A stretch of DNA of 63,477 nucleotides, the filler included, from Nemertoderma westbladi (taxonomy: Eukaryota; Animalia; Xenacoelomorpha), in the NCBI GenBank assembly GCA_032718475.1. It is 4 parts of 4 records of this genome, joined end to end, with 100 filler letters (N's around TTAATTAATTAA, not from the genome) between each part and the next. Parts side by side here need not be neighbours in the genome. Positions count along the whole stretch, not along the records: positions 1 to 28,993 come from JAUCBJ010003008.1; positions 29,094 to 47,966 come from JAUCBJ010006229.1; positions 48,067 to 57,632 come from JAUCBJ010005480.1; 1 more part is not named here. One strand, written 5' to 3'. Both the position numbers and the translations under genes were made by a program. Under the pieces are notes generated by a model. That model saw only the letters and a program-made list of their open reading frames with translations, was not told the DNA's origin and did no database searches. Positions 1 through 57,563 of this stretch are shown piece by piece; positions within the stretch are counted from its first letter, which is position 1, and each line of letters opens with the position of its first letter.

Positions 1-136
1 AAGAGAGGTAATCCTGGCCGATCTTATCGAGGGCGAAATCGTAGGCCTGGGCCATCTTCTCGTTGAAACTCGGTAGGGACGATTTGGTTAGGTTCACGTA
101 GTTGAGGTAACAACGCCACAATTCGATATTGAGTAC
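1..136 (-). CDS. CSTF3: CstF-77 (cleavage stimulation factor subunit 3), third visible coding exon; runs off the window start
   Basis: Minus strand after the acceptor ccccAG (137-138) translates [45 protein letters not shown]. This matches the CstF-77 HAT region [40 protein letters not shown] and joins the 14537-14593 exon in phase 0. Confidence 0.95.
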
Positions 137-642
137 CTGGGGGTTACAGAGTCGGTAACAGAGTTAACAGTTTTATATTGAGTAACTGGGGGTTACAGAG
201 TCTGTAACAGTTAACAGTTTTATATTGAGTACCTGGGGGTTACAAAGTCCAGTACAGGTAACAGTTTGATATGGAGTACCTGTGGGTTACAAAGTCCAGC
301 ACAGGTAACAGTTTGATATTGAGTACCTGGGGGTTACAGAGACGGTTAACAGTTTGATATAGAGTAACTGGGGGTTACAGAGTCCAGTACAGGTAACAGT
401 TTGATATTGAGTAACTGGGGGTTACAAAGTCCAGTACAGGTAACAGTTTGATATTGACTACCTGGGGGTTACAAAGTCCAGTACAGGTAACAGTTTGATA
501 TTGAGTACCTGGGGGTTACATAGTCCAGTACAGGTAACAGTTTGATATTGAGTACCTGGGGGTTACATAGTCCAGTACAGGTAACAGTTTGATATTGAGT
601 ACCTGTGGGTTACATAGTCCAACAGGTAACAGTTTGATATTG
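126..642 (-). repeat. ~47-bp minisatellite (~11 copies) made of the CSTF3 exon-3 splice acceptor plus the first ~12 nt of the exon
   Basis: Unit on minus strand GTACTCAATATCAAACTGTTACCTGTACTGGACTCTGTAACCCCCAG. The last copy supplies the real AG and continues into GTACTCAATATCGAA (V-L-N-I-E). Confidence 0.92.
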
Positions 643-675
643 AAATTAAATATTTATTATTGACAAAAAATCTAC

Positions 676-3600
676 AGATAAAGGTTAACAGAGTTCAATT
701 GACCTGGTAGAATAACGGTCAACCGGGTAGATTAAAGGTCAACAGAGTTCAATTGACCTTGTAGACAAAGGTCAACATAGTTCAATTGACCTGGTAGATA
801 AATATCAACAGAGTTCAACTGACCTGGTAGATAAAGGTCAACAGAGTTCAATTGACCTGGTAGAATAAAGGTCAATCTGGGAGATAAAGGTAAACAGAGT
901 TCAATTGACCTTGTAGATAAAGGTCAACAGAGTTCAATTGACGTGGTAGATAAAGGTCAACAGTGTTCAATTGACCTGGTAGGTAAAGGTCAACCTGGTG
1001 GATAAAGGTCAACAGAGTTCAATTGACCTGTTAGGTAAAGGCAACCTTGTCGATAAAGGTCAACAGAGTTCAATTGACCTTGAAGACAAAGGTTAACCTG
1101 GTAGATAAAGGTCAAAAGAGTTCAACTGACCTGGTATATAAAGGTCAACAGAGTCCAATTGACCTTGTAGATAAAGGTCAACCTTGTAGATAAAGGTCAA
1201 CAGAGTTCAATTAACCTTGTAGATAAAGGTAAACAGAGTTGAATTGATCTGGTAGAATAAAGGTCAACCTTGTAGATAAAGGTCAACAGAGTTCAATTGA
1301 CCTTGAAGACAAAAGTTAACCTGGTAGATAAAGGTCAAAAGAGTTCAACTGACCTGGTATATAAAGGTCAACAGAGTCCAATTGACCTTGTAGATAAAGG
1401 TCAACCTTGTAGATAAAGGTCAACAGAGTTCAATTAACCTTGTAGATAAAGGTAAACAGAGTTGAATTGATCTGGTAGAATAAAGGTCAACCTGGTAGAT
1501 AAATGTCAACAGAGTTCAATTAACCTTGTAGATAAAGGTCAACAGAGTTCAATTGACCTGGTAGATAAAGGTCAACCTGGAAGATAAAGGTCAACCTTGT
1601 AGATAAAGGTCAACAGAGTCCAATTGACCTGGTAGATAAAGGTCAACAGAGTTCAATTGACCTGGTAGATAAAGGTGAACAGAGTTCAATTGACCTGGTA
1701 GATAAAGGTCAACAGAGTTCAATTGACCTGGTAGATAAAGGTCAACAGAGTTCAATTGACCTGGTAGATAAAGGTCAACAGAGTTCAATTGACCTGGTAG
1801 ATAAAGGTCAACAGAGTTCAATTAACCTTGTAGATAAAGGTCAACAGAGTTCAATTGACCTGGTAGATAAAGGTCAACCTGGAAGATAAAGGTCAACCTT
1901 GTAGATAAAGGTCAACAGAGTCCAATTGACCTGGTAGATAAAGGTCAACAGAGTTCAATTGACCTTGTAGATAAAGGTCAACAGAGTTCAATTGACCTGG
2001 TAGATAAAGGTAAACATAATTCAATTGACCTTGTAGATAAAGGTCAACAGAGTTCAATTGACCTGGTAGATAAAGGTCAACAGAGTTCAATTGACCTGGT
2101 AGATAAAGGTCAACAGAGTTCAATTGACCTTGTAGATAAAGGTCAACAGAGTTCAATTGACCTTGTAGATAAAGGTCAACAGAGTTCAATTGACCTGGTA
2201 GATAAAGGTCAACAGAGTTCAATTGACCTGGTAGATAAAGGTCAACAGAGTTCAATTTACCTTGTAGATAAAGGTCAACAGAGTTCAATTGACCTTGTAG
2301 ATAAAGGTCAACAGAGTTCAATTGACCTTGTAGATAAAGGTCAACAGAGTTCAATTGACCTGGTAGATAAAGGTCAACAGAGTTCAATTGACCTGGTAGA
2401 TAAAGGTCAACAGAGTTCAATTGACCTTGTAGATAAAGGTCAACAGAGTTCAATTGACCTGGTAGATAAAGGTCAACCGGGTAGATAAAGGTCAACCTTG
2501 TAGATAAAGGTCAACAGAGTTCAATTGACCTGGTAGATAAAGGTCAACAGAGTTCAATTGACCTGGTAGATAAAGGTCAACAGAGTTCAATTGACCTTGT
2601 AGATTAAGGTCAACAGAGTTCAATTGACCTTGTAGATAAAGGTCAACAGAGTTCAATTGACCTGGTAGATAAAGGTCAACAGAGTTCAATTGACCTGGTA
2701 GATAAAGGTCAACAGAGTTCAATTTACCTTGTAGATTAAGGTCAACAGAGTTCAATTGACCTTGTAGATAAAGGTCAACAGAGTTCAATTGACCTTGTAG
2801 ATAAAGGTCAACAGAGTTCAATTGACCTGGTAGATAAAGGTCAACAGAGTTCAATTGACCTGGTAGATAAAGGTCAACAGAGTTCAATTGACCTTGTAGA
2901 TAAAGGTCAACAGAGTTCAATTGACCTGGTAGATAAAGGTCAACAGAGTTCAATTGACCTGGTAGATAAAGGTAAACAGAGTTCAATTGACCTTGTAGAT
3001 AAAGGTCAACAGAGTTCAATTGACCTGGTAGATAAAGGTAAACAGAGTTCAATTGACCTTGTAGATAAAGGTCAACAGAGTTCAATTGACCTGGTAGATA
3101 AAGGTAAACAGAATTCAATTGACCTTGTAGATAAAGGTCAACAGAGTTCAATTGACCTGGTAGATAAAGGTCAACAGAGTTCAATTGACCTTGTAGATAA
3201 AGGTCAACAGAGTTCAATTGACCTGGTAGATAAAGGTCAACAGAGTTCAATTGACCTGGTAGATAAAGGTCAACAGAGTTCAATTGACCTGGTAGATAAA
3301 GGTCAACAGAGTTCAATTGACCTTGTAGATAAAGGTCAACAGAGTTCAATTGACCTGGTAGATAAAGGTAAACAGAATTCAATTGACCTTGTAGATAAAG
3401 GTCGACAGAGTTCAATTGACCTGGTAGATAAAGGTCAACAGAGTTCAATTGACCTGGTAGATAAAGGTCAACAGAGTTCAATTGACCTGGTAGATAAAGG
3501 TAAACAGAATTCAATTGACCTTGTAGATAAAGGTCAACAGAGTTCAATTGACCTGGTAGATAAAGGTCAACAGAGTTCAATTGACCTGGTAGATAAAGGT

Positions 3601-6600
3601 CAACAGAGTTCAATTGACCTTGTAGATAAAGGTCAACAGAGTTCAATTGACCTGGTAGATAAAGGTAAACAGAGTTCAATTGACCTGGTAGATAAAGGTC
3701 AACAGAGTTCAATTGACCTTGTAGATAAAGGTCAACAGAGTTCAATTGACCTGGTAGATAAAGGTAAACAGAATTCAATTGACCTTGTAGATAAAGGTCA
3801 ACAGAGTTCAATTGACCTGGTAGATAAAGGTCAACAGAGTTCAATTGACCTTGTAGATAAAGGTCAACAGAATTCGACTGACCTTGTAGATAAAGGTCAA
3901 CCTTGTAGATAAAGGTCAACAGAGTTCAATTGACCTGGTAGATAAAGGTCAACAGAGTTCAATTGACCTTGTAGATAAAGGTCAACAGAGTTCAATTGAC
4001 CTTGTAGATAAAGGTCAACAGAGTTCAATTGACCTTGTAGATAAAGGTCAACAGAGTTCAATTGACCTGGTAGATAAAGGTAAACAGAATTCAATTGACC
4101 TTGTAGATAAAGGTCAACAGAGTTCAATTGACCTGGTAGATAAAGGTCAACAGAGTTCAATTGACCTGGTAGATAAAGGTCAACAGAGTTCAATTGACCT
4201 TGTAGATAAAGGTCAACAGAGTTCAATTGACCTGGTAGATAAAGGTAAACAGAATTCAATTGACCTGGTAGATAAAGGTCGACAGAGTTCAATTGACCTG
4301 GTAGATAAAGGTCAACAGAGTTCAATTGACCTGGTAGATAAAGGTCAACAGAGTTCAATTTACCTTGTAGATTAAGGTCAACAGAGTTCAATTGACCTTG
4401 TAGATAAAGGTCAACAGAGTTCAATTGACCTGGTAGATAAAGGTCAACAGAGTTCAATTGACCTTGTAGATAAAGGTCAACAGAGTTCAATTTACCTTGT
4501 AGATTAAGGTCAACAGAGTTCAATTGACCTTGTAGATAAAGGTAAACAGAATTCAATTGACCTTGTAGATAAAGGTCGACAGAGTTCAATTGACCTGGTA
4601 GATAAAGGTCAACAGAGTTCAATTGACCTTGTAGATAAAGGTCAACAGAATTCGACTGACCTTGTAGATAAAGGTCAACCTTGTAGATAAAGGTCAACAG
4701 AGTTCAATTGACCTGGTAGATAAAGGTCAACAGAGTTCAATTGACCTTGTAGATAAAGGTCAACAGAGTTCAATTGACCTTGTAGATAAAGGTCAACAGA
4801 GTTCAATTGACCTTGTAGATAAAGGTCAACAGAGTTCAATTGACCTGGTAGATAAAGGTAAACAGAATTCAATTGACCTTGTAGATAAAGGTCAACAGAG
4901 TTCAATTGACCTGGTAGATAAAGGTCAACAGAGTTCAATTGACCTGGTAGATAAAGGTCAACAGAGTTCAATTGACCTTGTAGATAAAGGTCAACAGAGT
5001 TCAATTGACCTGGTAGATAAAGGTAAACAGAATTCAATTGACCTGGTAGATAAAGGTCGACAGAGTTCAATTGACCTGGTAGATAAAGGTCAACAGAGTT
5101 CAATTGACCTGGTAGATAAAGGTCAACAGAGTTCAATTTACCTTGTAGATTAAGGTCAACAGAGTTCAATTGACCTTGTAGATAAAGGTCAACAGAGTTC
5201 AATTGACCTGGTAGATAAAGGTCAACAGAGTTCAATTGACCTTGTAGATAAAGGTCAACAGAGTTCAATTGACCTGGTAGATAAAGGTCAACAGAGTTCA
5301 ATTGACCTGGTAGATAAAGGTCAACAGAGTTCAATTGACCTGGTAGATAAAGGTCAACAGAGTTCAATTGACCTGGTAGATAAAGGTCAACAGAGTTCAA
5401 TTGTCCTTGTAGATAAAGGTCAACAGAGTTCAATTGACCTGGTAGATAAAGGTAAACAGAATTCAATTGACCTTGTAGATAAAGGTCGACAGAGTTCAAT
5501 TGACCTGGTAGATAAAGGTCAACAGAGTTCAATTGACCTGGTAGATAAAGGTCAACAGAGTTCAATTGACCTGGTAGATAAAGGTCAACAGAGTTCAATT
5601 GACCTTGTAGATAAAGGTCAACAGAGTTCAATTGACCTGGTAGATAAAGGTCAACAGAGTTCAATTGACCTTGTAGATAAAGGTCAACAGAGTTCAATTG
5701 ACCTGGTAGATAAAGGTCAACCGGGTAGATAAAGGTCAACCTTGTAGATAAAGGTCAACAGAGTCCAATTGACCTGGTAGATAAAGGTCAACAGAGTTCA
5801 ATTGACCTTGTAGATAAAGGTCAACAGAGTTCAATTGACCTGGTATATAAAGGTCAACAGAGTTCAATTGACCTTGTAGATAAAGGTCAACAGAGTTCAA
5901 TTGACCTGGTAGATAAAGGTCAACCGGGTAGATAAAGGTCAACCTTGTAGATAAAGGTCAACAGAGTTCAATTGACCTGGTAGATAAAGGTCAACAGAGT
6001 TCAATTGACCTGGTAGATAAAGGTCAACAGAGTTCAATTGACCTGGTAGATAAAGGTCAACAGAGTTCAATTGACCTTGTAGATAAAGGTCAACAGAGTT
6101 CAATTGACCTGGTAGATAAAGGTCAACAGAGTTCAATTGACCTGGTAGATAAAGGTCAACAGAGTTCAATTGACCTTGTAGATAAAGGTCAACAGAGTTC
6201 AATTGACCTGGTAGATAAAGGTCAACCGGGTAGATAAAGGTCAACCTTGTAGATAAAGGTCAACAGAGTCCAATTGATCTGGTAGATAAAGGTCAACAGA
6301 GTTCAATTGACCTTGTAGATAAAGGTCAACAGAGTTCAATTGACCTGGTAGATAAAGGTCAACCGGGTAGATAAAGGTCAACCTTGTAGATAAATGTCAA
6401 CAGAGTCCAATTGACCTGGTAGATAAAGGTCAACAGAGTTAAATTGACCTTGTAGATAAAGGTCTCAGAGTTCAATTGACCTGGTATATAAAGGTCAACA
6501 GAGTTCAATTGACCTGGTAGATAAAGGTCAACAGAGTTCAATTGACCTGGTAGATAAAGGTCAACAGAGTTCAATTGACCTTGTAGATAAAGGTCAACAG

Positions 6601-9600
6601 AGTTCAATTGACCTGGTAGATAAAGGTAAACAGAATTCAATTGACCTTGTAGATAAAGGTCGACAGAGTTCAATTGACCTGGTAGATAAAGGTCAACAGA
6701 GTTCAATTGACCTGGTAGATAAAGGTCAACAGAGTTCAATTGACCTTGTAGATAAAGGTCAACAGAGTTCAATTGACCTTGTAGATAAAGGTCAACAGAG
6801 TTCAATTGACCTGGTAGATAAAGGTCAACAGAGTTCAATTGACCTGGTAGATAAAGGTCAACAGAGTTCAATTGACCTTGTAGATAAAGGTCAACAGAGT
6901 TCAATTGACCTTGTAGATAAAGGTCAACAGAGTTCAATTGACCTGGTAGATAAAGGTCAACAGAGTTCAATTGACCTGGTAGATAAATGTCAACAGAGTT
7001 CAATTGACCTGGTAGATAAAGGTCAACCTTGTAGATAAAGGTCAACAGAGTTCAATTGACCTTGTAGATAAAGGTCAACAGAGTTCAATTGACCTGGTAG
7101 ATAAAGGTCAACAGAGTTCAATTGACCTGGTAGATAAATGTCAACAGAGTTCAATTGACCTGGTAGATAAAGGTCAACCTTGTAGATAAAGGTCGACAGA
7201 GTTCAATTGACCTGGTAGATAAAGGTCAACAGAGTTCAATTGACCTGGTAGATAAAGGTCAACAGAGTTCAATTGACCTTGTAGATAAAGGTCAACAGAG
7301 TTCAATTGACCTTGTAGATAAAGGTCAACAGAGTTCAATTGACCTGGTAGATAAAGGTCAACAGAGTTCAATTGACCTGGTAGATAAAGGTCAACAGAGT
7401 TCAATTGACCTTGTAGATAAAGGTCAACAGAGTTCAATTGACCTTGTAGATAAAGGTCAACAGAGTTCAATTGACCTGGTAGATAAAGGTCAGCAGAGTT
7501 CAATTGACCTGGTAGATAAAGGTCAACAGAGTTCAATTGACCTTGTAGATAAAGGTCAACAGAGTTCAATTGACCTTGTAGATAAAGGTCAACAGTGTTC
7601 AATTGACCTGGTAGATAAAGGTCAACCTTGTAGATAAAGGTCAACAGAGTTCAATTGACCTTGTAGATAAAGGTCAACAGTGTTCAATTGACCTGGTAGA
7701 TAAAGGTCAACCTTGTAGATAAAGGTCAACAGAGTTCAATTGACCTTGTAGATAAAGGTCAACAGTGTTCAATTGACCTGGTAGATAAAGGTCAACCTTG
7801 TAGATAAAGGTCAACAGAGTTCAATTGACCTTGTAGATAAAGGTCAACAGAGTTCAATTGACCTGGTAGATAAAGGTCAACCTTGTAGATAAAGGTCAAC
7901 AGAGTTCAATTGACCTTGTAGATAAAGGTCAGCAGAGTTCAATTGACCTGGTAGATAAAGGTCAACAGAGTTCAATTGACCTTGTAGATAAAGGTCAGCA
8001 GAGTTCAATTGACCTGGTAGATAAAGGTCAACAGAGTTCAATTGACCTTGTAGATAAAGGTCAACAGAGTTCAATTGACCTTGTAGATAAAGGTCAACAG
8101 TGTTCAATTGACCTGGTAGATAAAGGTCAACCTTGTAGATAAAGGTCAACAGAGTTCAATTGACCTTGTAGATAAAGGTCAACAGAGTTCAATTGACCTG
8201 GTAGATAAAGGTCAACAGAGTTCAATTGACCTGGTAGATAAATGTCAACAGAGTTCAATTGACCTGGTAGATAAAGGTCAACCTTGTAGATAAAGGTCAA
8301 CAGAGTTCAATTGACCTTGTAGATAAAGGTCAACAGTGTTCAATTGACCTGGTAGATAAAGGTCAACCTTGTAGATAAAGGTCAACAGAGTTCAATTGAC
8401 CTGGTAGATAAATGTCAACAGAGTTCAATTGACCTGGTAGATAAAGGTCAACCTTGTAGATAAAGGTCAACAGAGTTCAATTGACCTTGTAGATAAAGGT
8501 CAACAGTGTTCAATTGACCTGGTAGATAAAGGTCAACCTTGTAGATAAAGGTCAACAGAGTTCAATTGACCTTGTAGATAAAGGTCAACAGAGTTCAATT
8601 GACCTGGTAGATAAAGGTCAACAGAGTTCAATTGACCTGGTAGATAAAGGTCAACCTTGTAGATAAAGGTCAACAGAGTTCAATTGACCTTGTAGATAAA
8701 GGTCAGCAGAGTTCAATTGACCTGGTAGATAAAGGTCAACAGAGTTCAATTGACCTTGTAGATAAAGGTCAACAGTGTTCAATTGACCTGGTAGATAAAG
8801 GTCAACAGAATTCAATTGACCTGGTAGATAAAGGTCAACCTTGTAGATAAAGGTCGACAGAGTTCAATTGACCTTGTAGATAAAGGTCAACAGTGTTCAA
8901 TTGACCTGGTAGATAAAGGCCAACAGAATTCAATTGACCTGGTAGATAAAGGTCAACCTTGTGGATAAAGGTCAACAGAGTTCAATTGACCTTGTAGATA
9001 AAGGTCAGCAGAGTTCAATTGACCTGGTAGATAAAGGCCAACAGAGTTCAATTGACCTGGTAGATAAAGGTAAACAGAATTCAATTGACCTTGTAGATAA
9101 AGGTCAACAGAGTCCAATTGACCTGGTAGATAAAGGTCAACAGAGTTCAATTGACCTTGTAGATAAAGGTCAACAGAGTTCAATTGACCTGGTAGATAAA
9201 GGTCAACAGAGTTAAATTGACCTTGTAGATAAAGGTCAACAGAGTTCAATTGACCTGGTATATAAAGGTCAACAGAGTTCAATTGACCTGGTAGATAAAG
9301 GTCAACAGAGTTCAATTGACCTGGTAGATAAAGGTCAACAGAGTTCAATTGACCTTGTAGATAAAGGTCAACAGAGTTCAATTGACCTGGTAGATAAAGG
9401 TAAACAGAATTCAATTGACCTTGTAGATAAAGGTCGACAGAGTTCAATTGACCTGGTAGATAAAGGTCAACAGAGTTCAATTGACCTGGTAGATAAAGGT
9501 CAACAGAGTTCAATTGACCTTGTAGATAAAGGTCAACAGAGTTCAATTGACCTGGTAGATAAAGGTCAACAGAGTTCAATTGACCTGGTAGATAAATGTC

Positions 9601-12600
9601 AACAGAGTTCAATTGACCTGGTAGATAAAGGTCAACCTTGTAGATAAAGGTCAACAGAGTTCAATTGACCTTGTAGATAAAGGTCAGCAGAGTTCAATTG
9701 ACCTGGTAGATAAAGGTCAACAGAGTTCAATTGACCTTGTAGATAAAGGTAAACAGAGTTCAATTGACCTGGTAGATAAAGGTCAACAGAGTTCAATTGA
9801 CCTGGTAGATAAAGGTCAACAGAGTTCAATTGACCTTGTAGATAAAGGTCAACAGAGTTCAATTGACCTGGTAGATAAAGGTCAACAGAGTTCAATTGAC
9901 CTGGTAGATAAATGTCAACAGAGTTCAATTGACCTGGTAGATAAAGGTCAACCTTGTAGATAAAGGTCAACAGAGTTCAATTGACCTTGTAGATAAAGGT
10001 CAGCAGAGTTCAATTGACCTGGTAGATAAAGGTCAACAGAGTTCAATTGACCTGGTAGATAAAGGTAAACAGAATTCAATTGACCTTGTAGATAAAGGTC
10101 GACAGAGTTCAATTGACCTGGTAGATAAAGGTCAACAGAGTTCAATTGACCTGGTAGATAAAGGTCAACAGAGTTCAATTGACCTTGTAGATAAAGGTCA
10201 ACAGAGTTCAATTGACCTGGTAGATAAAGGTCAACAGAGTTCAATTGACCTGGTAGATAAAGGTCAACAGAGTTCAATTGACCTTGTAGATAAAGGTCAA
10301 CAGAGTTCAATTGACCTTGTAGATAAAGGTCAACAGAGTTCAATTGACCTGGTAGATAAAGGTCAACAGAGTTCAATTGACCTGGTAGATAAATGTCAAC
10401 AGAGTTCAATTTACCTGGTAGATAAAGGTCAACCTTATAGATAAAGGTCAACAGAGTTCAATTGACCTTGTAGATAAAGGTCAGCAGAGTTCAATTGACC
10501 TGGTAGATAAAGGTCAACAGAGTTCAATTGACCTTGTAGATAAAGGTCAACAGAGTTCAATTGACCTTGTAGATAAAGGTCTACAGTGTTCAATTGACCT
10601 GGTAGATAAAGGTCAACCTTGTAGATAAAGGTCAACAGAGTTCAATTGACCTTGTAGATAAAGGTCAACAGAGTTCAATTGACCTGGTAGATAAAGGTCA
10701 ACAGAGTTCAATTGACCTGGTAGATAAAGGTCAACCTTGTAGATAAAGGTCAACAGAGTTCAATTGACCTTGTAGATAAAGGTCAGCAGAGTTCAATTGA
10801 CCTGGTAGATAAAGGTCAACAGAGTTCAATTGACCTTGTAGATAAAGGTCAACAGAGTTCAATTGACCTTGTAGATAAAGGTCAACAGTGTTCAATTGAC
10901 CTGGTAGATAAAGGTCAACCTTGTAGATAAAGGTCAACAGAGTTCAATTGACCTTGTAGATAAAGGTCAACAGAGTTCAATTGACCTGGTAGATAAAGGT
11001 CAACAGAGTTCAATTGACCTGGTAGATAAATGTCAACAGAGTTCAATTGACCTGGTAGATAAAGGTCAACCTTGTAGATAAAGGTCAACAGAGTTCAATT
11101 GACCTTGTAGATAAAGGTCAACAGTGTTCAATTGACCTGGTAGATAAAGGTCAACCTTGTAGATAAAGGTCAACAGAGTTCAATTGACCTGGTAGATAAA
11201 GGTCAACAGAGTTCAATGACCTGGTAGATAAAGGTCAACCTTGTAGATAAAGGTCAACAGAGTTCAATTGACCTGGTAGATAAAGGTCAACAGAGTTCAA
11301 TTGACCTGGTAGATAAAGGTCAACCTTGTAGATAAAGGTCAACAGAGTTCAATTGACCTGGCAGATAATGGTCAACAGAGTTCAATTGACCTGGTAGATA
11401 AAGGTCAACTCAACAGAGTTCAATTGACCTGGTAGATAAAGGTCAACAGAGTTCAACTGACCTGGTAGGTATAGGTCAACCTGGTAGATAAAGATCAACA
11501 TAGTTTAAATGACCTGGTAGATAAAGGTCAACAGAGTTCAATTGACCTGGTAGATAAAGGTCAACAGAATTCAATTGACCTGGTAGATAAAGGTCAACTC
11601 AACAGAGTTCGACTGACCTGGTAGATAAAGGTCAACAGAGTTCAATTGACCTTGTAGATGAAGGTCAACAGAGTTCAATTGACCTTGTAGATAAAGGTCA
11701 ACAGAGTTCAATTGACCTGGTAGATAAAGGTCAACCTTGTAGATAAAGGTCAGTAGAGTTCGACTGACCTGGTAGATAAAGGTCAACAGAGTTCAATTGA
11801 CCTTGTAGATGAAGGTCAACAGAGTTCAATTGACCTTGTAGATAAAGGTCAACAGAGTTCAATTGACCTGGTAGATAAAGGTCAACAGAGTTTAATTGAC
11901 CTTGTAGATAAAGGTCAACAGAGTTCAACTGACCTGGTAGGTAAAGGTCAACCTGGTAGATAAAGATCAACATAGTTCAAATGACCTGGTAGATAAAGGT
12001 CAACAGAGTTCAATTGACCTGGTAGATAAAGGTCAACTCAACAGAGTTCAATTGACCTGGTAGATAAAGGTCAACAGAGTTCAACTGACCTGGTAGGTAT
12101 AGGTCAACCTGGTAGATAAAGATCAACATAGTTCAAATGACCTGGTAGATAAAGGTCAACAGAGTTCAATTGACCTGGTAGATAAAGGTCAACAGAATTC
12201 AATTGACCTGGTAGATAAAGGTCAACTCAACAGAGTTCGACTGACCTGGTAGATAAAGGTCAACCTTGTAGATAAAGGTCAGCAGAGTTCGACTGACCTG
12301 GTAGATAAAGGTCAACAGAGTTCAATTGACCTGGTAGATAAAGGTCAACAGAGTTCAATTGACCTGGTAGATAAAGGTCAACAGAGTTCGACTGACCTGG
12401 TAGATAAAGGTCAACAGAGTTCAATTGACCTGGTAGATAAAGGTCAACCGGGTAGATAAAGGTCAACAGAGTTCAACTGACCTGGTAGATAAAGGTCAAC
12501 CTTGTAGATAAAGGTCAACAGAGTTCAACTGACCTGGTAGATAAAGGTCAACCTTGTAGATAAAGGTCAACAGAGTTCAATTGACCTGGTAGATAAAGGT

Positions 12601-12735
12601 CATCAGAGTTCAATTGACCTGGTAGATAAAGGTCAACAGAGTTCAATTGACCTGGTAGATAAAGGTCAACAGAGTTCAACTGACCTGGTAGGTAAAGGTC
12701 GACGTGGTAGATAGAGTTCAACAGAGTTCAATTGA
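676..12735. repeat. 33-bp satellite (~12 kb, roughly 360-380 units, with 19-bp deletion variants and higher-order blocks) inside CSTF3 intron 2
   Basis: Plus-strand unit GTAGATAAAGGTCAACAGAGTTCAATTGACCT(G/T). Minus-strand unit GTCAATTGAACTCTGTTGACCTTTATCTAC(C/A)AG. Confidence 0.98.
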
Positions 12736-14442
12736 AGGGCTCATTGATAAAAGGTCCTATGTGAAAAAATAGTCATCCTAAGATATAGACACTTCGCGTA
12801 TTTTTTTACCTACTCAGAACAGTTGATATTGGCATTTTGAATTTTTGCATGCAAATTTTTTATGCCTGAGAATACTTTTCTTCCTAACAAAAGGAATATA
12901 TAGAGGTGTACATATGTTATGTATGTACAAATCACTTTTCGATTACTCATCTCTACTATCAGATCAGAATATAGATCGTATTCTAAATTGTTTTAGTTGT
13001 TATTCACATGATCAGCCTCCACAATGGTACAATTAGTTCCGGCTGTCCTGTTGGTTAGATACTTCAGTGTTCCAACCGGAAGGTCGTGAGATCGAGCCCC
13101 AGAAAAGGAACAGCAGTAAAACTGATAGGAACTACTGAAGGTATAGCCTACGGGTTATCGAGAACGCTGAAAATGATGACACTAGTGAAAATGATTACTG
13201 GTATGCAACCATCATTTTTGGTGCTATTCTGGTGCCCCACGATGAAAATTAGAAACTTTGTAACCAAAATGTTAAACTGTTAAATTTTGCATTTCGTTGT
13301 GTAATTCTGAACCTACACTGGTTTTCTAGGTACCGGTAGCTGATAACGGTACAACCCGATAAAAAATATTTCATGGTATCACAACTATCGTTTTTGTTGC
13401 ATTTCTAATGTCTGGTATGACGAAAAATAGAAGTTGCATCACATTTCAAACTGCCAAAAATGGAATTTGGTTGGATAATTTTGAAGCTATAGGGTGTTCG
13501 AGATCGCTGATCACGATAAAACTTGTTATAAACCTTTTATGGAAGTGTCACCATCAAATTTATTATCAAATTGTGCTATTTGTATTTTTGTGCCACATTG
13601 GCACATATTCAAAAATTCGATAATGATTCAGAAAAAACATTTCTGAGAGTCATACTAATTCAGCTACCAAGAAAACACATGAGGCCATATAATTAGGTCG
13701 ATTTGGTTGTTATTTTTCATTATCATATTTACACTACCGGTACTTGTTTTTTTCGTGCCCCAGCGGGCGCATTCCAAATTAACACAAATTTTCTCTAATG
13801 TTATATATGAGTTCTATAATCGTGATCGGCATCGAAAAAAAACTCAAGGCCTACAGTATATACCGCAAATAAATTTATTTTAGCGAGCCATAAAAACTTT
13901 TGAACATTTTAGCACGAAAAAATACTGGAGATGGATGCCAGAAGGGGACCACAGCACGAAAACTAACATAGTTATATAATTGACGTTTGCGCAGCTTGAC
14001 AGCCAAATAAATTTCAGGAAAAGTAACAAAATCTCGGTTTTTCCAACAAACCTGGCCCAAATATACAGATAAATAACTACAAATTTCTAAAATGACCCAC
14101 CCCCGGGCCAAATAGGGTTAAGAAAACGTCTGACCCGATTGGATAATAACCCTCGTCAATAATCAATACTATGTTGTACATAGAATATATATCACAGACA
14201 CAATACTCGGTTACATAGAACTTTTTCTTGCTAATGCTATACAATTTTCCACATGGAAATGGTTCTATGTGGCACATAGACTTTTTCTGTCAACGTCTAT
14301 TTGAGTTTTATACTACATAGTAACCTTTTCCTTCCAAAAAGTATGTTGTTAATTCTGTTCATATGATCACAGAACCTTATGGGGGGGGGGGGGGGGGGGG
14401 GGGGAGTTAAGTCATGTCACAAAGGATTTCTCAAAAATTCCT
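12736..14442. mobile_element. Probable non-autonomous DNA transposon inserted into the 33-bp satellite
   Basis: TCAATTGA (part of the satellite unit) flanks both sides (12728-12735, 14443-14450), as expected for a target-site duplication. Ends are AGG...CCT with degenerate terminal/subterminal inverted similarity (ttgataaaaaggtcctatgtg versus the reverse complements of cacatagactttttctgtcaa and tcacaaaggatttctcaa). No transposase ORF. Confidence 0.6.
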
Positions 14443-14536
14443 TCAATTGACCTTGTAGATAAAAGTCAACCGGGTAGATAAAGTTAAACAGAGTTCAACT
14501 GACCTGGTAAATAAAGGTCAACAGAGTTCATCTAAC
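14443..14536 (-). repeat. First ~3 units of the 33-bp satellite, starting exactly at the CSTF3 exon-2 donor GT
   Basis: Minus strand reads exon ...ATTAAG|GTTAGATGAACTCTGTTGACCTTTATTTACCAG|GTCAGTTGAACTCTG... Confidence 0.9.
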
Positions 14537-14593
14537 CTTAATGAGACACCGTTGGAAGAGCTTCTCCACCTTTTCGTAATTCCGCGCTTTCAT
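14537..14593 (-). CDS. CSTF3: CstF-77 second visible coding exon (57 nt)
   Basis: ttAG|ATG...AAG|GTTAG. Translates MKARNYEKVEKLFQRCLIK versus CstF-77 IKAKNYDKVEKLFQRCLMK. Phase 0 at both ends. Confidence 0.95.
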
Positions 14594-15728: not shown

Positions 15729-15914
15729 CTCATGTTCAATATACATTTTCCAGTATCTTCCGCAGTTTGGAAACTGTGTTACTAAACGTTCGTATATGTG
15801 TCTCGCATTTTCCACTGAGACTCCCTGGCATTCCCGAATTAATATCGCCCATCCCTCGATGTCCCACGGATTGTGTTGGACCCGCTTTTCTAGCTTGCGA
15901 ATTTTATCCGACAT
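15729..15914 (-). CDS. CSTF3: CstF-77 first visible coding exon (true start may be this ATG or in an upstream exon)
   Basis: MSDKIRKLEKRVQHNPWDIEGWAILIRECQGVSVENARHIYERLVTQFPNCGRYWKMYIEHE matches CstF-77 ...NPYDLDAWSILIREAQ...[26 protein letters not shown]. Donor GAG|GTGAGA at 15728. Confidence 0.93.
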
Positions 15915-40652: not shown

Positions 40653-40658
40653 GTGAGT

Positions 40659-47040: not shown

Positions 47041-47044
47041 AATA

Positions 47045-48066: not shown

Positions 48067-48084
48067 AGATCCAATCTCACTCAC

Positions 48085-48225
48085 CTTCCAGTTGTTCCAA
48101 CAGATCCCATCTCGGCATTCTGGTCGCAGAACGTACTGGATTTCTTCACATATATCAGATCGTTTTCTGTGTAACTCAACATGTCGGAATATCGTGTTTC
48201 TAACTCGTAACGCATTCCAATTTGT
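48085..48225 (-). CDS. WNT11: Wnt11-like ligand, exon D
   Basis: ttcccAG|A CAA...GGA AG|GTGAGT. Translates (R)QIGMRYELETRYSDMLSYTENDLIYVKKSSTFCDQNAEMGSVGTTG(R), aligning with the Wnt ELVYL.SSPDFC....GS.GT..R segment. Phase 2 fits exon C. Confidence 0.88.
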
Positions 48226-48349
48226 CTGGGAATAATGTAATGACAACGTCATTGAACGGGACTGGTATTTAAACCAGAATGCGAGAGAGAGAGTATTAAA
48301 AATATATGATATTCGAGCGAATTATGGCATCACAATTACGACATCATAA

Positions 48350-48653
48350 AATTGTGGGAGGTGAACCGGCCCCTAAAACCCTAAATAACTCTCACGATGT
48401 TATTGTGGGAAGTGAACCGGCCCCTAAAACCCTAAATAACTCTCACGATGTTATTGTGGGAAGTGAACCGGCCCCTAAAACCCTAAATAACTCTCACGAT
48501 GTTATTGTGGGAAGTGAACCGGCCCCTAAAACCCTAAATAACTCTCACGATGTTATTGTGGGAAGTGAACCGGCCCCTAAAACCCTAAATAACTCTCACG
48601 ATGTTATTGTGGGAAGTGAACCGGCCCCTAAAACCCTAAATAACTCTCACGAT
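48350..48653. repeat. 51-bp tandem repeat, 6 near-identical copies, intronic
   Basis: ATTGTGGGAAGTGAACCGGCCCCTAAAACCCTAAATAACTCTCACGATGTT. Confidence 0.95.
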
Positions 48654-48939
48654 TTTATCATTATTGATGAGATTCGTTTGATTTATGATCTTGAATTTAA
48701 AGATATCCAGAGAACTCATCTGGTAGCTGAACGTGAGCCTCAAAATCTGTGATTGCGGTCGTTAAATGTTAAAAATAACTAATAAAAATTACTTCAAGAC
48801 TTTTATAATCCAGCTATTTTTAAGATTACAACAGTGCCAGGCGTTTTAAAATTCTAGCAGGACCGATGATTTTAGTGTAGAATCGATAATTTAATATTAT
48901 TAAGTGCTAGATTATGACTTGGAGTACTTCTTTCTTCCT

Positions 48940-52220: not shown

Positions 52221-53928
52221 GTCGTTTGAATAATAATTTCAGAAATATTCCATCAACTTGTATTCAACTTTATATATTCAACTTTGTTTTCACTCAATAA
52301 ATTTTGGAATATTTTTGTCAGAGTAGTTCACTACAAAATATTTAATTTAAAATTTGAAATACAATATTTTGGTAATTGTTATTATAATTAATTAATTGAA
52401 AAGAATAAATTATATTATAAAAAACTTCAAATGATGTACATTAAAATAATACTGATAATGGAGAAATGATGGAATGGTTTTATTACAACAATAAACTACT
52501 GTAGAGAAACGAAATGGATCTGCCAAAATATAGATATCAAGTGTCAAAACTTTTAGATATGGTGTAACTTAGACGTAGGCCTTCAGTATTTTATAAAACA
52601 ATTAGACTCCAGTTCGAGTTGTCCGTCCTTTATTCATATACAATGCCATATGGGGCAGATTTGGCGAACTTTAATCCAGTCTGGTGTATTTTTGTGCCAA
52701 AAATAATTATTCAATTGTGTTAAGCCTATCAGACATGACATATTATTATTAATAAATATATTATGGTTTACAAAGTAGAATGTGGTTTATAGTTCTGTCA
52801 TATACGAATCACTCACAGCTGCATATTACTGTAGGTGGCAACCATAATGACGATGTATGAAGTGTAACAAGTTAAGTTTACTAACGAATATTACATTGTT
52901 CGATGCACAGTAGGTAATGATGGACTGCAGGAAGTCATATAGATGAGGTGAGCAAGTCAAATCAAATCAGCAACAAAAAATATACCCCAAAATAATTGCT
53001 CCACCCTGATATTATCATAGTTGAGTTAAGATGTAACCTAGGTAACATCTTAGTGCTAAAACCCAGCGCTAACTTGCAGGAGTTTTACCGACTGTCTGAC
53101 TGTCATCTTAGAACAGATCAGCATGATCGTGATCTTTGTTCTGTGGCAGCCGGCCGGTGGTGAACGAAATGTTTTAAGAATAATGGCCGTTTAATGCTGG
53201 TCGTTTCTTATTGTGAATCAAGGTCACAAAACTTATTTCCAATCATATTATACATATCATATTATACAAGTGTTTGGACATAATATTATGTCCATCGACC
53301 CCAAAGACGGACGGTTACTTTGGTGGTTCCTCTAGAGATATTAAACTAAAAGAAAATCTACTGGATTTATCGCGAGTTCGAGGCTCTGAATTGGATAAGG
53401 AATTACAGACAAATCTTCTTTGATAGTATCAACTGGTAATAAATAGTATCATCTTTGTTTTTGTGGTGGATAACTAAACAGTCTCATCCGATATCATTGC
53501 CATTCCGCTAAGGAAATCATGTTTCGGCTCAAAAAACAAATGTTCTTCGAAGATTAAGATCTTGTGTTAGATCAAAACGAAAAATCGATTTTAGATTGTC
53601 TTTTCAAAGACATGAGGAGGTTCGAATGCAACACCAGTGCCTGTTTATCCCGAAGATCAAATGCACATCAAACAGGAAGGTGATTTTATGGAAATGAAAG
53701 CTACATGATTACTATTTGTTTAGAGGATTGCATTGCTACTCTCCCAAAATGTTATCGTTCCAGTAAGTATGATGTTTCACTGTGCGATATTCTATTTTCC
53801 TACCACAGTACCATTTTAGCGAAGTACAAAAGAGCCAGTTTGCCCCAGCTGTTGCGCCATTATGTTACGCAGACAATACGTATCTGTACAATAAATTATC
53901 TTAATTATATTTCTGTTTGATTACTAAC

Positions 53929-54080
53929 CGATGGCGGACCTCTGTGGCGTCATGGTAACGGCTCATCAGTTCATCCCCAACGGCGCTGAACTTTGGTGAG
54001 ATTCTCCAGCATGTCTGAGTCTGACAGCCCCCGGAAACACCGTGGCATTTACACTTCTTTTCCATTGAATTTACCACGGC
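53929..54080 (-). CDS. WNT11: Wnt11-like ligand, exon C (contains the Wnt signature)
   Basis: ccgttAG|GCC...CAT CG|GTTAGT. Translates AVVNSMEKKCKCHGVSGGCQTQTCWRISPKFSAVGDELMSRYHDATEVRH(R). CKCHGVSG is the Wnt family signature. Confidence 0.95.
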
Positions 54081-55132
54081 CTAACGGAGTAAATATAATA
54101 TTACAATAATATTTCATTAATACATAAATGTGACGAATGATTAATGATATAATAGAAAAATTATAATGGGGGATTATATGGAAAGAGCACGAGCTCTAGC
54201 AAAAGCAAGACCTGATGAGTGGAGGGGGGAGGTTTACATTTTTGGTTAACCAAAATAAGTAATGGGTGAACGTGTGAAACAAGAAACACCTGAGGCTACC
54301 CGAACGCTCCTCTCTCTTGGCTGTTACCTGTAAAACAGGGAGGGGAGCACACTAACTCCTAGCGTCCAATACTTTCACTACTTCCTTAGAGTTAAATGAA
54401 AACAGGGATGTTCCTTTTCTGGGGCTAGACTAACAACATTGCAATTGACCGACTTTTTAAACATCTGGACAACCTAGGTACGTTTTCATTAAATATTACT
54501 TTTGTATAGTTTCTATAGTCCATAACTAATTGAATTACAAGAAAGATACATTTTCATGTGTTTACCACGAAATAATTAAATAAATAAATCGGGCCGCGCA
54601 ATAATTATTAAAATGTTATATAACCAACCATTCCACTTCATAAACATAAAAAATTCAGCTGCTTGTACCAAGTATGGCACAATAATCAAAAAAGAAGAAT
54701 CACGAAAGAAGAAAGAAGATCGATGATCAAGAAAGAAGAATTAATTGTGACTCCAGTTTCAATTAAATCAGCTTCATCAAAAACCCTTGCAAATTCTTGT
54801 GGCTTTGCCTTCAATATTTTATTTTTAATTTAATTTTGGCCTTGCCCACATTTCTATAGAGGCTGAATCACTGTGCCTTGGCGTAAAGGATACCGTAAAC
54901 CGTCAAACATCATCCAGGTGTATTCCGGGTAAATAGAAATACTGGACTGGTACTAAAGTATCAGACACATCACATATCCAAGGTCTATCAGACAAGGTAA
55001 TACATGGATACGAAGTTTCAATGAAAGGTTTACTGAGAGCAGGGGGAGGTGAAAAGGCAATATTATGGTAAAAAATGATATTGCAAGAAACAAAATAAAA
55101 GCCATCGTTTTCGATGCAATAAATAGTTTTAA

Positions 55133-56108
55133 TTGTGTTTATCAAACTAAACTTACGTTTCTCCCCGCTCGGTTGTTGTGTTTATCAAACTAAACTTACG
55201 TTTCTCCCCGCTCGGTTGTTGTGTTTATCAAACTAAACTTACGTTTCTCCCCGCTCGGTTGTTGTGTTTATCAAACTAAACTTACGTTTCTCCCCGCTCG
55301 GTTGTTGTGTTTATCAAACTAAACTTACGTTTCTCCCCGCTCGGTTGTTGTGTTTATCAAACTAAACTTACGTTTCTCCCCGCTCGGTTGTTGTGTGTGT
55401 TTATCAAACTAAACTCACGTTTCTCCCCGCTCGGTTGTTGTGTTTATCAAACTAAACTTACGTTTCTCCCCGCTCGGTTGTTGTGTGTGTTTATCAAACT
55501 AAACTCACGTTTCTCCCCGCTCGGTTGTTGTGTTTATCAAACTAAACTTACGTTTCTCCCCGCTCGGTTGTTGTGTGTGTTTATCAAACTAAACTCACGT
55601 TTCTCCCCGCTCGGTTGTTGTGTTTATCAAACTAAACTCACGTTTCTCCCCGCTCGGTTGTTGTGTTTATCAAACTAAACTCACGTTTCTCCCCGCTCGG
55701 TTGTTGTGTTTATCAAACTAAACTCACGTTTCTCCCCGCTCGGTTGTTGTGTTTATCAAACTAAACTCACGTTTCTCCCCGCTCGGTTGTTGTGTTTATC
55801 AAACTAAACTTACGTTTCTCCCCGCTCGGTTGTTGTGTGTGTTTATCAAACTAAACTCACGTTTCTCCCCGCTCGGTTGTTGTGTTTATCAAACTAAACT
55901 CACGTTTCTCCCCGCTCGGTTGTTGTGTTTATCAAACTAAACTTACGTTTCTCACCGCTCGGTTGTTGTGTTTATCAAACTAAACTTACGTTTCTCCCCG
56001 CTCGGTTGTTGTGTGTGTTTATCAAACTAAACTCACGTTTCTCCCCGCTCGGTTGTTGTGTTTATCAAACTAAACTTACGTTTCTCCCCGCTCGGTTGTT
56101 GTGTTTAT
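55133..56108 (-). repeat. 43/45-bp tandem array (~22 copies) of the Wnt exon-B end plus splice donor
   Basis: Minus-strand unit ATAAACACAACAACCGAGCGGGGAGAAAC|GT(A/G)AGTTTAGTTTG. The first copy is the coding exon end (NKHNNRAGRN). Confidence 0.96.
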
Positions 56109-56217
56109 TCATCAACGCTTTCGCAGTTGGAGCCTTCTTCTTCCGTATCAGATGAGCGTCGGCGAACTCTTCGCTGATACGCAGTCCGTGTTGCAGATTG
56201 TCGCCGCATCCACCCCA
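56080..56217 (-). CDS. WNT11: Wnt11-like ligand, exon B
   Basis: ctacAG|TGG...AAC|GTAAGT. Translates WGGCGDNLQHGLRISEEFADAHLIRKKKAPTAKALMNKHNNRAGRN (Wnt WGGC.DN and HNN..GR motifs; WGGCGDNL and F.DA..+KK resemble Wnt11). Confidence 0.95.
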
Positions 56218-56439
56218 CTGTAGACGTAAATAAAAAAAGTGAAATATAATACAACGGGATATATAGTAGCCCGCCCTGTAAAGTTCAGATTAATATGTGT
56301 AATAGCCAACTATAAATACCAGAAGGAGTAAAATATGAACGATTTTTAAAATAAAATGAATTTGATGGCTATTTAGTTTGTTTGAGCAAAAACGTTAGGT
56401 ATAGACATAATTATAGCCTAACAATTTCTAACAATTACG

Positions 56440-56630
56440 TCGGGTTCACTGTGTCCAAGTACAATGCAAATAAATATCTACGACCGTAAAGACAGATTTG
56501 GAGGGGTCTCAATGGTCTCCCAAGCTTGACACTTAACTAGGACAGGAGGTTGACACTGGACTTGAAGATACGGATAATCTTGTAAAAGTCATGGGGGATA
56601 GGGAGTTGTGACGGCGCAATATTGTCGATT
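56440..56630 (+). mobile_element. Short decayed fragment of the same RTE family
   Basis: Similar to 50330-50635 (gggttcactgtgtccaagtacaatgca; gtcatgggggatagggagttgtgacggcgcaat). Confidence 0.75.
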
Positions 56631-56640
56631 GGATACAATT

Positions 56641-57563
56641 GGTTCTGTAACTCACCTTAAACTGTCCGTTTGTCGGGTAGCCTCTTGGTACTGTAACTCA
56701 CCTTAAACTGTCCGTTTGTCGGGTATCCTCTTGGTACTGTAACTCACCTTAAACTGTCCGTTTGTCGGGTAGCCTCTTGGTACTGTAACTCACCTTAAAC
56801 TGTCCGTTTGTCGGGTAGCCTCTTGGTACTGTAACTCACCTTAAACTGTCCGTTTGTCGGGTATCCTCTTGGTACTGTAACTCACCTTAAACTGTCCGTT
56901 TGTCGGGTAGCCACTTGGTACTGTAACTCACCTTAAACTGTCCGTTTGTCGGGTAGCCTCTTGGTACTGTAACTCACCTTAAACTTTCCGTTTGTCTGTA
57001 GCCTCTCGGTACTGTAACTCACCTTAAACTGTCCGTTTGTCGGGTAGCCTGTTGGTACTGTAACTCACCTTAAACTGTCCGTTTGTCGGGTATCCTCTTG
57101 GTACTGTAACTCACCTTAAACTGTCCGTTTGTCGGGTAGCCTCTTGGTACTGTAACTCACCTTAAACTGTCCGTTTGTCGGGTATCCTCTTGGTACTGTA
57201 ACTCACCTTAAACTGTCCGTTTGTCGGGTAGCCTCTTGGTACTGTAACTCACCTTAAACTTTCCGTTTGTCTGTAGCCTCTCGGTACTGTAACTCACCTT
57301 AAACTGTCCGTTTGTCGGGTAGCCTGTTGGTACTGTAACTCACCTTAAACTGTCCGTTTGTCGGGTATCCTCTTGGTACTGTAACTCACCTTAAACTGTC
57401 CGTTTGTCGGGTAGCCACTTGGTACTGTAACTCACCTTAAACTGTCCGTTTGTCGGGTAGCCTCTTGGTACTGTAACTCACCTTAAACTTTCCGTTTGTC
57501 GGGTAGCCTCTTGGTACTGTAACTCACCTTAAACTGTCCGTTTGTCGGGTAGCCTCTTGGTAC
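56641..57563 (-). repeat. 46-bp tandem array (~20 copies) of the Wnt exon-A end plus splice donor
   Basis: Minus-strand unit GTACCAAGAGGCTACCCGACAAACGGACAGTTTAAG|GTGAGTTACA. The first copy is the coding exon end (VPRGYPTNGQFK). Confidence 0.96.

What the first reader, a model, noticed from the sequence alone, without database searches (positions are those of the whole stretch)
126..57563. Splice junctions amplified into tandem arrays: a recurring exon/intron-boundary minisatellite architecture in two unrelated genes
Seen: four arrays with unrelated sequences (47 bp at 126-642, 33 bp starting at 14536, 43 bp at 55133-56108, 46 bp at 56641-57563) each begin or end exactly at a functional splice site of CSTF3 or the Wnt11-like gene, and their units retain a splice signal. 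That is 4 of 11 visible junctions, on two different contigs. In the three exon-overlapping arrays the terminal copy is the coding exon edge and the other 10-21 copies are decoy splice sites in the intron. Inference: either a mutational process preferentially amplifies DNA across splice sites (splicing- or R-loop-linked slippage, or cDNA-mediated), or the arrays tune splicing. Null model: minisatellites arise everywhere, and junction-spanning ones survive because the extra copies fall in the intron. I am not aware of this being described as a genome-wide system.
Basis: partly seen in the sequence, partly recalled or inferred. Interest (0 to 1): 0.92.

Follow-up and report, generated by a model that had tools for sequence, protein, structure and literature searches.

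The report
Mirage repeats at CSTF3, Wnt junctions
In two genes of an invertebrate animal, short pieces at exon edges are repeated head-to-tail 11 to about 375 times into the neighbouring introns, and the one spliced CSTF3 sequence seen uses only the original splice sites, so these are likely harmless examples of a repeat type already described in lancelets, chickens and people.

Summary
The arrays are real and at the stated coordinates. Three copy an exon edge with its splice site: 47 bp at the CSTF3 exon-3 acceptor, and 43 and 46 bp at two Wnt donors. The 33-bp array starts at the CSTF3 exon-2 donor but shares only AG with the exon, and it resembles the 47-bp family in the same intron. So there are likely three independent events, not four unrelated ones. 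Every decoy site tested gives a premature stop. One contig that behaves like mRNA joins CSTF3 exons 1-2-3 at the authentic sites; Wnt splicing was not seen. A second sample holds three of the four units. The architecture is published: lancelet "mirage" minisatellites, chicken "exon stuttering" (a genome-wide screen), and human F7, CBS and IFI6 VNTRs. This scan has noted it before in at least 14 genomes, often in this one. Junction enrichment here is about 24-fold over a uniform null (P about 3e-4), but it disappears if introns were about 200 nt or shorter when seeded, and the window was picked for the pattern. Verdict: new member of a known kind, likely neutral. A junction-biased mutation process stays open and is testable genome-wide.

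The parts
15729..15914 (-). CSTF3 (CstF-77) coding exon 1, 62 codons; donor at 15728, no array
   Evidence: Pfam Suf E 8e-16; PDB 6uro_E residues 16-75; spliced joint 15729 to 14593 in run X4
14537..14593 (-). CSTF3 exon 2, 57 nt; donor at 14536
   Evidence: fills residues 76-94; covered by X4 record 31
14442..14536 (-). First 2-3 degenerate copies of the 33-bp unit, starting at the authentic donor; only AG is shared with exon 2
   Evidence: donor edge bridged in sample S2 (X3 record 23, X2 record 16)
12736..14441 (.). 1.7-kb non-array segment with dispersed-repeat fragments, flanked by a 9-bp direct repeat of array sequence (12727-12735 and 14442-14450); likely an insertion that split one array
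   Evidence: flanks; high-depth bins inside; left boundary bridged by X3 record 17; no joint skipping it among the rows shown
675..12735 (-). Main 33/19-bp array, about 12 kb. Each unit reads GT...AG; 375 AG|GT sites, 337 with a YTRAY motif 8-25 nt upstream, 16 with +4A+5G
643..674 (.). 32-nt AT-rich non-repeated core, the only unique sequence between the two CSTF3 intron-2 arrays
118..643 (-). 47-bp acceptor-spanning array (units 41-49 nt): 28 intron nt plus 19 exon-3-like nt; 10 decoy CAG acceptors, authentic acceptor at 137
1..136 (-). CSTF3 exon 3 (runs off the window)
   Evidence: PDB 6uro_E residues 95-138; loose end of X4 contig matches 105-134
57528..57632 (-). Wnt exon A (cut by contig end); donor at 57527
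   Evidence: PF00110 positions 74-103, weak E 0.043; open frame with exons B-D
56639..57563 (-). 46-bp donor-spanning array: 36 exon nt plus 10 intron nt; 20 AAG|GTGAGT sites (1 authentic, 19 decoys); 275-bp higher-order repeat
56080..56217 (-). Wnt exon B, 138 nt; donor at 56079
   Evidence: PF00110 positions 109-151, E 1e-9
55133..56108 (-). 43-bp donor-spanning array (some units 47 nt): 29 exon nt plus 14 intron nt; 22 donors (12 GTAAGT including the authentic one, 10 GTGAGT)
53929..54080 (-). Wnt exon C, 152 nt; no array at either edge
48351..48658 (.). 51-bp x6 intronic array, 125 nt from the exon-D acceptor; does not span a junction (internal control)
48085..48225 (-). Wnt exon D, 141 nt; no array at its acceptor; only 18 nt of the next intron are in the contig

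Best explanation
Three tandem arrays copy an exon edge with its splice site into the neighbouring intron and a fourth starts at a donor, and they are likely neutral 'mirage' minisatellites that arose by ordinary local duplication in once-short introns and persist because splicing likely keeps using the copy nearest the exon. Shown: the anatomy; premature stops from every decoy tested; authentic-site joining in one CSTF3 contig; three of four units in a second sample. Inferred: (1) a 33-47-bp duplication by slippage or repair seeded each array; (2) it grew by unequal exchange, as the higher-order blocks suggest; (3) duplications inside exons were purged and those across a junction were tolerated; (4) exon-proximal site choice (5' scanning as in F7, exon definition for the acceptor) protects the mRNA, and rare decoy products would be lost to nonsense-mediated decay; (5) CSTF3 intron 2 was about 100 nt or less before two related arrays and an insertion took it to 14.4 kb.
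For: Unit anatomy. Open frames from decoys: 0 of 19, 0 of 21, 0 of 10 and 0 of 2; 0 of 301 YAG sites in CSTF3 intron 2. X4 record 31 joins 15729 to 14593 with GT..AG ends, and its loose end at exon 2 is the authentic exon-3 start, found once in the window. Apart from the arrays and the 1.7-kb insert, CSTF3 intron 2 keeps 32 unique nt. With five introns of 200 or 100 nt, P(3 or more of 4 at junctions) is 0.13 or 0.48. Ten minisatellite arrays in the window span no mapped junction, so arrays are common here. Published cases splice normally (PMC3087553 and PMC3902484 passages; PMC1557585 abstract and introduction).
Against: With present intron sizes, arrays collapsed, a junction hit is expected in 4-5% of events; 3 of 4 has P 3e-4 to 5e-4, and with 500-nt introns still 0.013. 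The Wnt introns collapse to 438, 1076 and 5446 nt, not 100 nt, so the short-intron step is inferred for them. All 50 decoys in the three exon-overlapping arrays keep their GT or CAG, which homogenisation explains but selection could too. X4 is one contig from one run that is not on record as RNA, and contigs drop rare variants. Published human cases (IFI6, CBS) do use proximal decoys (PMC1557585 introduction).
Confidence: 0.7

Rival explanations
1. A mutational process tied to transcription or splicing (R-loops, spliceosome-linked pausing, repair at exon edges) seeds duplications preferentially at splice junctions in this lineage; the arrays are still neutral afterwards.
For: 3 events against 0.12 expected at 11 junctions from the window's own array density, about 24-fold, P 2.9e-4. 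In the two genes, 4 of 5 intronic arrays touch a junction. Other notes of this scan report many such arrays in the same genome (unchecked leads, not support).
Against: The window was selected for this pattern; P of about 3e-4 is 1 window in about 3,000. The excess vanishes for introns of about 200 nt or less. The 33- and 47-bp arrays are probably not independent. No exon-exon (cDNA-type) unit was found: all three exon-overlapping units contain intron sequence in genomic order, which argues against a cDNA route. Seven of 11 junctions have no array.
Confidence: 0.18
2. CSTF3 intron 2 was itself born from, or is built of, repeat copies: the 33-bp unit (GT...AG with a branch-like motif) is a whole ancestral mini-intron, or a degenerate AG|GT-spanning unit, amplified about 375 times. 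This concerns one intron and can hold together with the best explanation.
For: Both intron ends sit in AG|GT context. The 33-bp unit aligns with the 47-bp family with AG|GT in register. The first 33 and last 40 nt of this intron share a 12-of-13-nt match, p 0.013, against p 0.40-1.0 in the 4 other introns. From recall only, not checked: human CSTF3 has no intron after codon 94. PMC3087553 proposes intron gain from mirages.
Against: The 33-bp unit does not resemble the exon2-exon3 junction (p 0.38) and the 47-bp unit does not resemble the exon-2 end (p 0.75), which the classic exon-duplication model predicts. A 32-nt unrelated core lies between the arrays. The similarity tests are post hoc on short sequences. 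No orthologous gene structure could be examined.
Confidence: 0.12
3. The arrays are selected splicing regulators: decoy sites divert part of the transcript to decay, and array length tunes gene dosage.
For: All decoys in the three exon-overlapping arrays keep canonical dinucleotides, and 10 of the 43-bp copies carry another strong donor, GTGAGT. Every decoy product has a premature stop. Human IFI6 and CBS use proximal decoys (PMC1557585 introduction).
Against: Units are not shared between the genes, copies are near-identical (a sign of recent homogenisation), and the one spliced contig uses authentic sites. Lancelet data suggested no interference with splicing (PMC3087553 passages).
Confidence: 0.05
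4. The arrays are assembly or sequencing artefacts.
For: Contigs are short and several end in repeats. Array lengths were not verified, and the 47-bp array was not checked in other runs.
Against: Sample S2 of a different study holds contigs longer than one unit of the 43- and 46-bp repeats (73 nt = 43+30; 76 nt = 46+30) and contigs crossing array edges. Copies carry recurring variants in higher-order blocks.
Confidence: 0.02

Closest known systems
Lancelet (Branchiostoma) 'mirage' minisatellites: Adh3, globins BflGb6 and BflGb9, troponin C, PGBD5 (PMC3087553, passages; PMC3902484, one passage; the original Adh3 paper, doi 10.1093/nar/gkf386, was not held and not read)
   Same: Tandem units spanning an exon-intron boundary, at both 5' and 3' boundaries, 10-160 bp, in several unrelated genes of one genome, with normal splicing and a proposed route to intron gain.
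   Different: Apparently another animal (sulfotransferase matches to Branchiostoma only 29-32%). More copies here (11-22, and about 375 for the 33-bp unit, against 3-6 for BflGb6). Length polymorphism and somatic instability were not tested here.
Chicken 'exon stuttering' (bioRxiv 10.1101/2025.09.16.676548; 12 of 14 passages and the whole Discussion)
   Same: Locally born repeat clusters; over 90% of copied exon pieces lie within 1 base of the exon border; 1-44 copies, spans of 112-23,555 bp; found by a genome-wide screen (236 introns in 115 genes).
   Different: Tied to GC-rich dot chromosomes and more irregular; here GC is 34-48% in most 2-kb bins and arrays are clean head-to-tail. Its control, as far as I read, was shuffled introns for false hits, not a test of junction bias.
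Human junction-spanning VNTRs: F7 intron 7 (37 bp), IFI6/6-16, CBS intron 13, LMNB2, PDGF (PMC1557585, abstract and introduction)
   Same: First monomer spans the donor; identical pseudo-donors follow; the most upstream site is used. F7 has only 4 exon bp in its unit, close to the 33-bp case.
   Different: Isolated single-gene donor cases; scanning was shown in mammalian cells, not in this animal. IFI6 and CBS also use proximal decoys, which was not seen or excluded here.
Internal tandem repeats at exon-intron boundaries in human segmental duplications (PMC2812944, outline and 7 passages)
   Same: Minisatellite expansion at exon-intron boundaries, with possible formation of new introns.
   Different: Recently duplicated primate paralogues with altered transcripts; here single-locus conserved genes with an intact frame.

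Membership tests
mirage minisatellite / junction-spanning VNTR | Head-to-tail minisatellite (units of about 10-160 bp) | tested here: met
   unit lists
mirage minisatellite / junction-spanning VNTR | Unit spans an exon-intron boundary of the host gene (47-, 43-, 46-bp arrays) | tested here: met
   19, 29 and 36 exon nt plus intron edge; exons confirmed
mirage minisatellite / junction-spanning VNTR | Unit spans an exon-intron boundary (33-bp array) | tested here: inconclusive
   starts at the donor but shares only 2 exon nt; longest exon-edge word in the intron is 7 nt, like array-free junctions; may derive from the 47-bp family
mirage minisatellite / junction-spanning VNTR | Copies reiterate the splice signal | tested here: met
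   19, 21 and 10 intact decoys; in the 33-bp array mostly acceptor-like, 16 of 375 donor-like
mirage minisatellite / junction-spanning VNTR | Authentic (exon-proximal) site is used in mRNA: CSTF3 | tested here: met
   one contig in run X4, which behaves as RNA but is not on record as RNA; minor decoy use not excluded
mirage minisatellite / junction-spanning VNTR | Authentic site is used in mRNA: Wnt | tested here: inconclusive
   X4 had no cover of Wnt exon B
mirage minisatellite / junction-spanning VNTR | Copy-number polymorphism or somatic instability | not testable with these tools
   only short-read contigs, which collapse arrays
exon stuttering (chicken) | Locally born copies of an exon edge in the adjacent intron | tested here: met
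exon stuttering (chicken) | GC-rich dot-chromosome context and high length variation between alleles | tested here: not met
   GC about 37-41% in the array bins; allele variation untested; it works alike but is not filed there
   Wnt family only; PDB hits to Wnt-5a, -8, -3, -7a without a Wnt11 chain; homologue search found nothing

The most novel reading that the evidence does not exclude
In this lineage a transcription- or splicing-coupled mutational process seeds tandem duplications preferentially at splice junctions, sometimes copying a whole mini-intron (the 33-bp GT...AG unit, about 375 times), and this is a main engine of intron growth and possibly intron birth. The genome would then be a natural library of tandem decoy splice sites for testing how the spliceosome picks one site among hundreds.
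Probability: 0.17. Interest if true: 0.62.

Novelty: new member of a known kind. Interest (0 to 1): 0.24.

Why it matters
As it stands it extends a known, little-studied repeat type to two more genes, and shows one intron that likely grew from about 100 nt to 14.4 kb with the one spliced contig seen still correctly joined past about 300 candidate acceptors. If a genome-wide test showed real junction bias, it would link splicing or transcription to where duplications arise and give a direct route to study intron growth and gain. My eight literature searches returned no such test for an invertebrate genome.

Tried and rejected
No whole genome is held, so the genome-wide intersection could not be run. 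Homologue searches with CSTF3 exon 1 and Wnt exon B among longer proteins found nothing (weak evidence). Run search: no RNA holder listed. X4 gave no cover of Wnt exon B and X3 none of its middle: no evidence either way. No joint skipping the 1.7-kb segment among the 15 joints shown, 11 not shown. Taxon: the sulfotransferase's top 30 hits were unnamed (42-54% identity), the best named hit a copepod protein at 49%, and the Atlas search gave only VWA3A clusters at 0.79; the animal is not identified. Exon-duplication origin of CSTF3 intron 2: no similarity of units to the exon junction. Relatedness among 43-, 46- and 47-bp units: none, p 0.24-1.0. The 46-bp against 53-bp comparison gave p 0.044, 1 of 9 tests, likely through the shared donor motif. 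Microhomology at array ends cannot be told from partial copies without an unexpanded allele, so it is not used. The original mirage paper was not held. Look-ups of earlier findings near this place and by the 53-bp sequence were empty. Supplements of the papers were not read; those of the chicken preprint may list cases or controls that bear on the novelty claim.
Full report
Window. It is four contigs joined by N-linkers: 1-28993, 29094-47966, 48067-57632 and 57733-63477. No whole genome is held. The animal is an unidentified invertebrate. A neighbouring sulfotransferase has unnamed top hits at 42-54%, a copepod protein at 49% as best named hit, and Branchiostoma proteins at 29-32%. An earlier scan note calls this genome a likely acoel; I did not test that.

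Genes. CSTF3 lies on the minus strand: exon 1 15914-15729, exon 2 14593-14537, exon 3 from 136 downward. Exon 1 aligns to residues 16-75 and exon 3 begins at residue 95 of CstF-77 chain 6uro_E, so the 19 codons of exon 2 fit exactly, and the frame is open. The Wnt gene, also minus, has exon A (to 57528), B (56217-56080), C (54080-53929) and D (48225-48085). They match successive parts of PF00110 (exon A only weakly) and give one open frame of 178 codons. The subfamily label Wnt11 was not shown. Other long ORFs in the window (sulfotransferase, VWA3A-like, WD40, reverse-transcriptase remnants) showed no sign of introns.

Arrays. The 46-bp unit is 36 exon nt plus 10 intron nt, with 20 identical AAG|GTGAGT sites. 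The 43-bp unit is 29 exon nt plus 14 intron nt, with 22 donors, 12 GTAAGT and 10 GTGAGT. The 47-bp unit is 28 intron nt plus 19 nt like the start of exon 3 (two substitutions), with 10 decoy CAG acceptors. In each, the copy nearest the exon body is the coding edge. Of 10 exon edges tested for exact words in the adjacent intron, these three gave 30, 29 and 12 nt; the other seven gave 7-9 nt, including the CSTF3 exon-2 donor. The eleventh junction has only 18 nt of intron in the contig and was not tested.

It begins at the exon-2 donor with 2-3 degenerate copies, is interrupted by a 1.7-kb segment (12736-14441) flanked by a 9-bp direct repeat of array sequence, and continues for 12 kb. The segment holds high-copy repeat fragments, so an insertion into one continuous array is likely, though no empty allele was seen. 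The unit shares only AG with exon 2. Of 375 AG|GT sites in the main array, 16 have the +4A+5G found in all 6 authentic donors, while 337 have a YTRAY motif upstream and 212 are YAG: they look more like acceptors than donors. The unit also resembles the 47-bp family. Dinucleotide-shuffle p was 0.03, 0.001 and 0.011 against three copies in the same orientation, and 0.24 or more in the other 13 of 16 comparisons. These tests are post hoc. The two arrays share one intron and leave 32 unique nt between them. I therefore count three independent events and infer that this intron was about 100 nt or less before it grew to 14,400 nt.

Consequence of decoy use. Open frames: 0 of 19 (46-bp), 0 of 21 (43-bp), 0 of 10 (47-bp), 0 of 2 (first 33-bp copies), and 0 of 301 YAG sites in CSTF3 intron 2. 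Decoys can only give truncated products.

Which copy is used. Run X4 is listed as DNA by guess, and no holder is on record as RNA. It has no depth over most single-copy bins of intron 1, and its record 31 (1179 nt, depth 1517, no differences) skips 14594-15728 with GT..AG ends; X1-X3 do not show that joint. Its loose end at exon 2 matches window 105-134, which occurs once and is followed by the two letters that also begin the intron. So this contig joins exon 2 at the authentic donor to the terminal-copy acceptor. I infer that X4 is an RNA library; a processed gene copy is the alternative. It is one contig, and contigs drop rare variants. X4 did not cover Wnt exon B, so the Wnt donors are untested.

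Reality. X1 may be the source and is left out. Sample S2 (runs X2 and X3, one study) holds a 596-nt contig from exon B to 36 nt inside the 46-bp array, unit contigs of 76 nt (46+30) and 73 nt (43+30), and contigs across the exon-2 donor and across the array-insert boundary. No copy-to-copy junction had 31 letters on both sides. Recurring variants form higher-order blocks, such as period 275. An artefact is unlikely; lengths are unverified, and the 47-bp array was not checked.

Chance. With arrays collapsed, the five complete introns total 9,895 nt (8,188 without the insert), and a 44-bp duplication would span a junction 4-5% of the time. P(3 or more of 4 array families) is 2.8e-4 to 4.8e-4. 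From the window's own density (10 non-junction arrays in 37.9 kb collapsed), 0.12 are expected at 11 junctions against 3 seen: 24-fold, P 2.9e-4. Against this, the same test gives 0.013, 0.13 and 0.48 if the introns were 500, 200 or 100 nt when seeded, and the window was picked because it shows the pattern. The excess is suggestive and not decisive.

Mechanism. Most likely (0.70): ordinary local duplication and minisatellite turnover, filtered by selection, in introns that were short when seeded, with exon-proximal site choice protecting the mRNA. The seeding, growth and site-choice steps are inferred from the anatomy and from published cases. Rivals: junction-biased mutation (0.18); CSTF3 intron 2 built from copies of a whole mini-intron or born from repeats (0.12, compatible with the first); selected splicing regulation (0.05); artefact (0.02). 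A cDNA route is unlikely because the units contain intron sequence in genomic order.

Known systems. [quoted passage not shown] PMC3902484 (one passage) adds troponin C and PGBD5. PMC1557585 (abstract and introduction) covers human F7, IFI6, CBS, LMNB2 and PDGF and reports scanning-type choice of the most upstream donor. A chicken preprint (10.1101/2025.09.16.676548; 12 of 14 passages and the Discussion) screened a genome and found 236 introns with exon-edge copies. PMC2812944 (outline and passages) covers boundary repeats in human duplications. PMC10078293 was seen only as a search listing. The original mirage paper was not available. The three exon-overlapping arrays meet the mirage definition; the 33-bp array is a borderline member. 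Eight searches found no test of junction bias in an invertebrate genome, but the library lacks most subscription papers.

Earlier scan notes. Twenty findings in at least 14 genomes hold the same words, and many pieces of this genome carry larger arrays of this kind. These are unchecked leads. They gave me the chicken paper and show that this window is a modest example.

Verdict. Observation partly confirmed; new member of a known kind; interest 0.24. What remains open is whether duplications arise preferentially at junctions in this genome, which needs the whole-genome test.

Noticed in passing
window 19064-24879: 53-bp array of 110 copies whose unit carries a full donor consensus (88 exact copies of the motif) after 41 nt that read open in phase 0, but no exon is mapped. 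Chance is about 0.002 per array and 0.017 over 10 arrays. It may be a mirage of an unmapped exon or an orphaned one. It abuts a 0.9-kb (TGTC)n run and sits between two blocks of a 147-150-bp satellite.
   Followed up: partly
window 16457-17739, 18087-19065, 24911-25541: A 147-150-bp satellite interrupted by a block with a strong palindrome near 18090-18128 and a (TGTC)n run of 230 copies; by recall this resembles Helentron-type non-autonomous elements; not tested.
   Followed up: no
window 56015-56114: Summed contig depth on the 43-bp unit is far above the flank (about 3,900 against 6.8 in X1, about 1,900 against 24 in X2), more than 22 copies suggest. Depth is not copy number, but a much longer allele or a second locus is possible.
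   Followed up: no
window 56440-56630: Fragment of a very high-copy dispersed repeat inside Wnt intron A, resembling the ends of the reverse-transcriptase elements at 48976-50655 and 61217-62107.
   Followed up: partly
window 29096-32923 (+): Uninterrupted 1,276-codon VWA3A-like ORF with a C-terminal Ig I-set domain, intronless in a genome with long introns.
   Followed up: partly
window 27275-28351 (-) and 37665-38885 (+): Intronless sulfotransferase ORF with arthropod-type named relatives and an intronless WD40 ORF.
   Followed up: partly
window 51120-52238 (-): 373-codon ORF nested in Wnt intron C on the Wnt strand, with no Pfam match.
   Followed up: partly
window 39427-39619: 52-bp x3.7 array whose minus strand has an acceptor-like stretch just before it and a donor-like motif in the unit; possibly another small mirage of an unmapped exon; not tested.
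   Followed up: no
window 40657-41830 and 45830-46990: Two related blocks, each with a GGGAATGT-type array and shared flanking sequence, around ORFs including a weak reverse-transcriptase match at 44661-45857; likely a rearranged retroelement.
   Followed up: no
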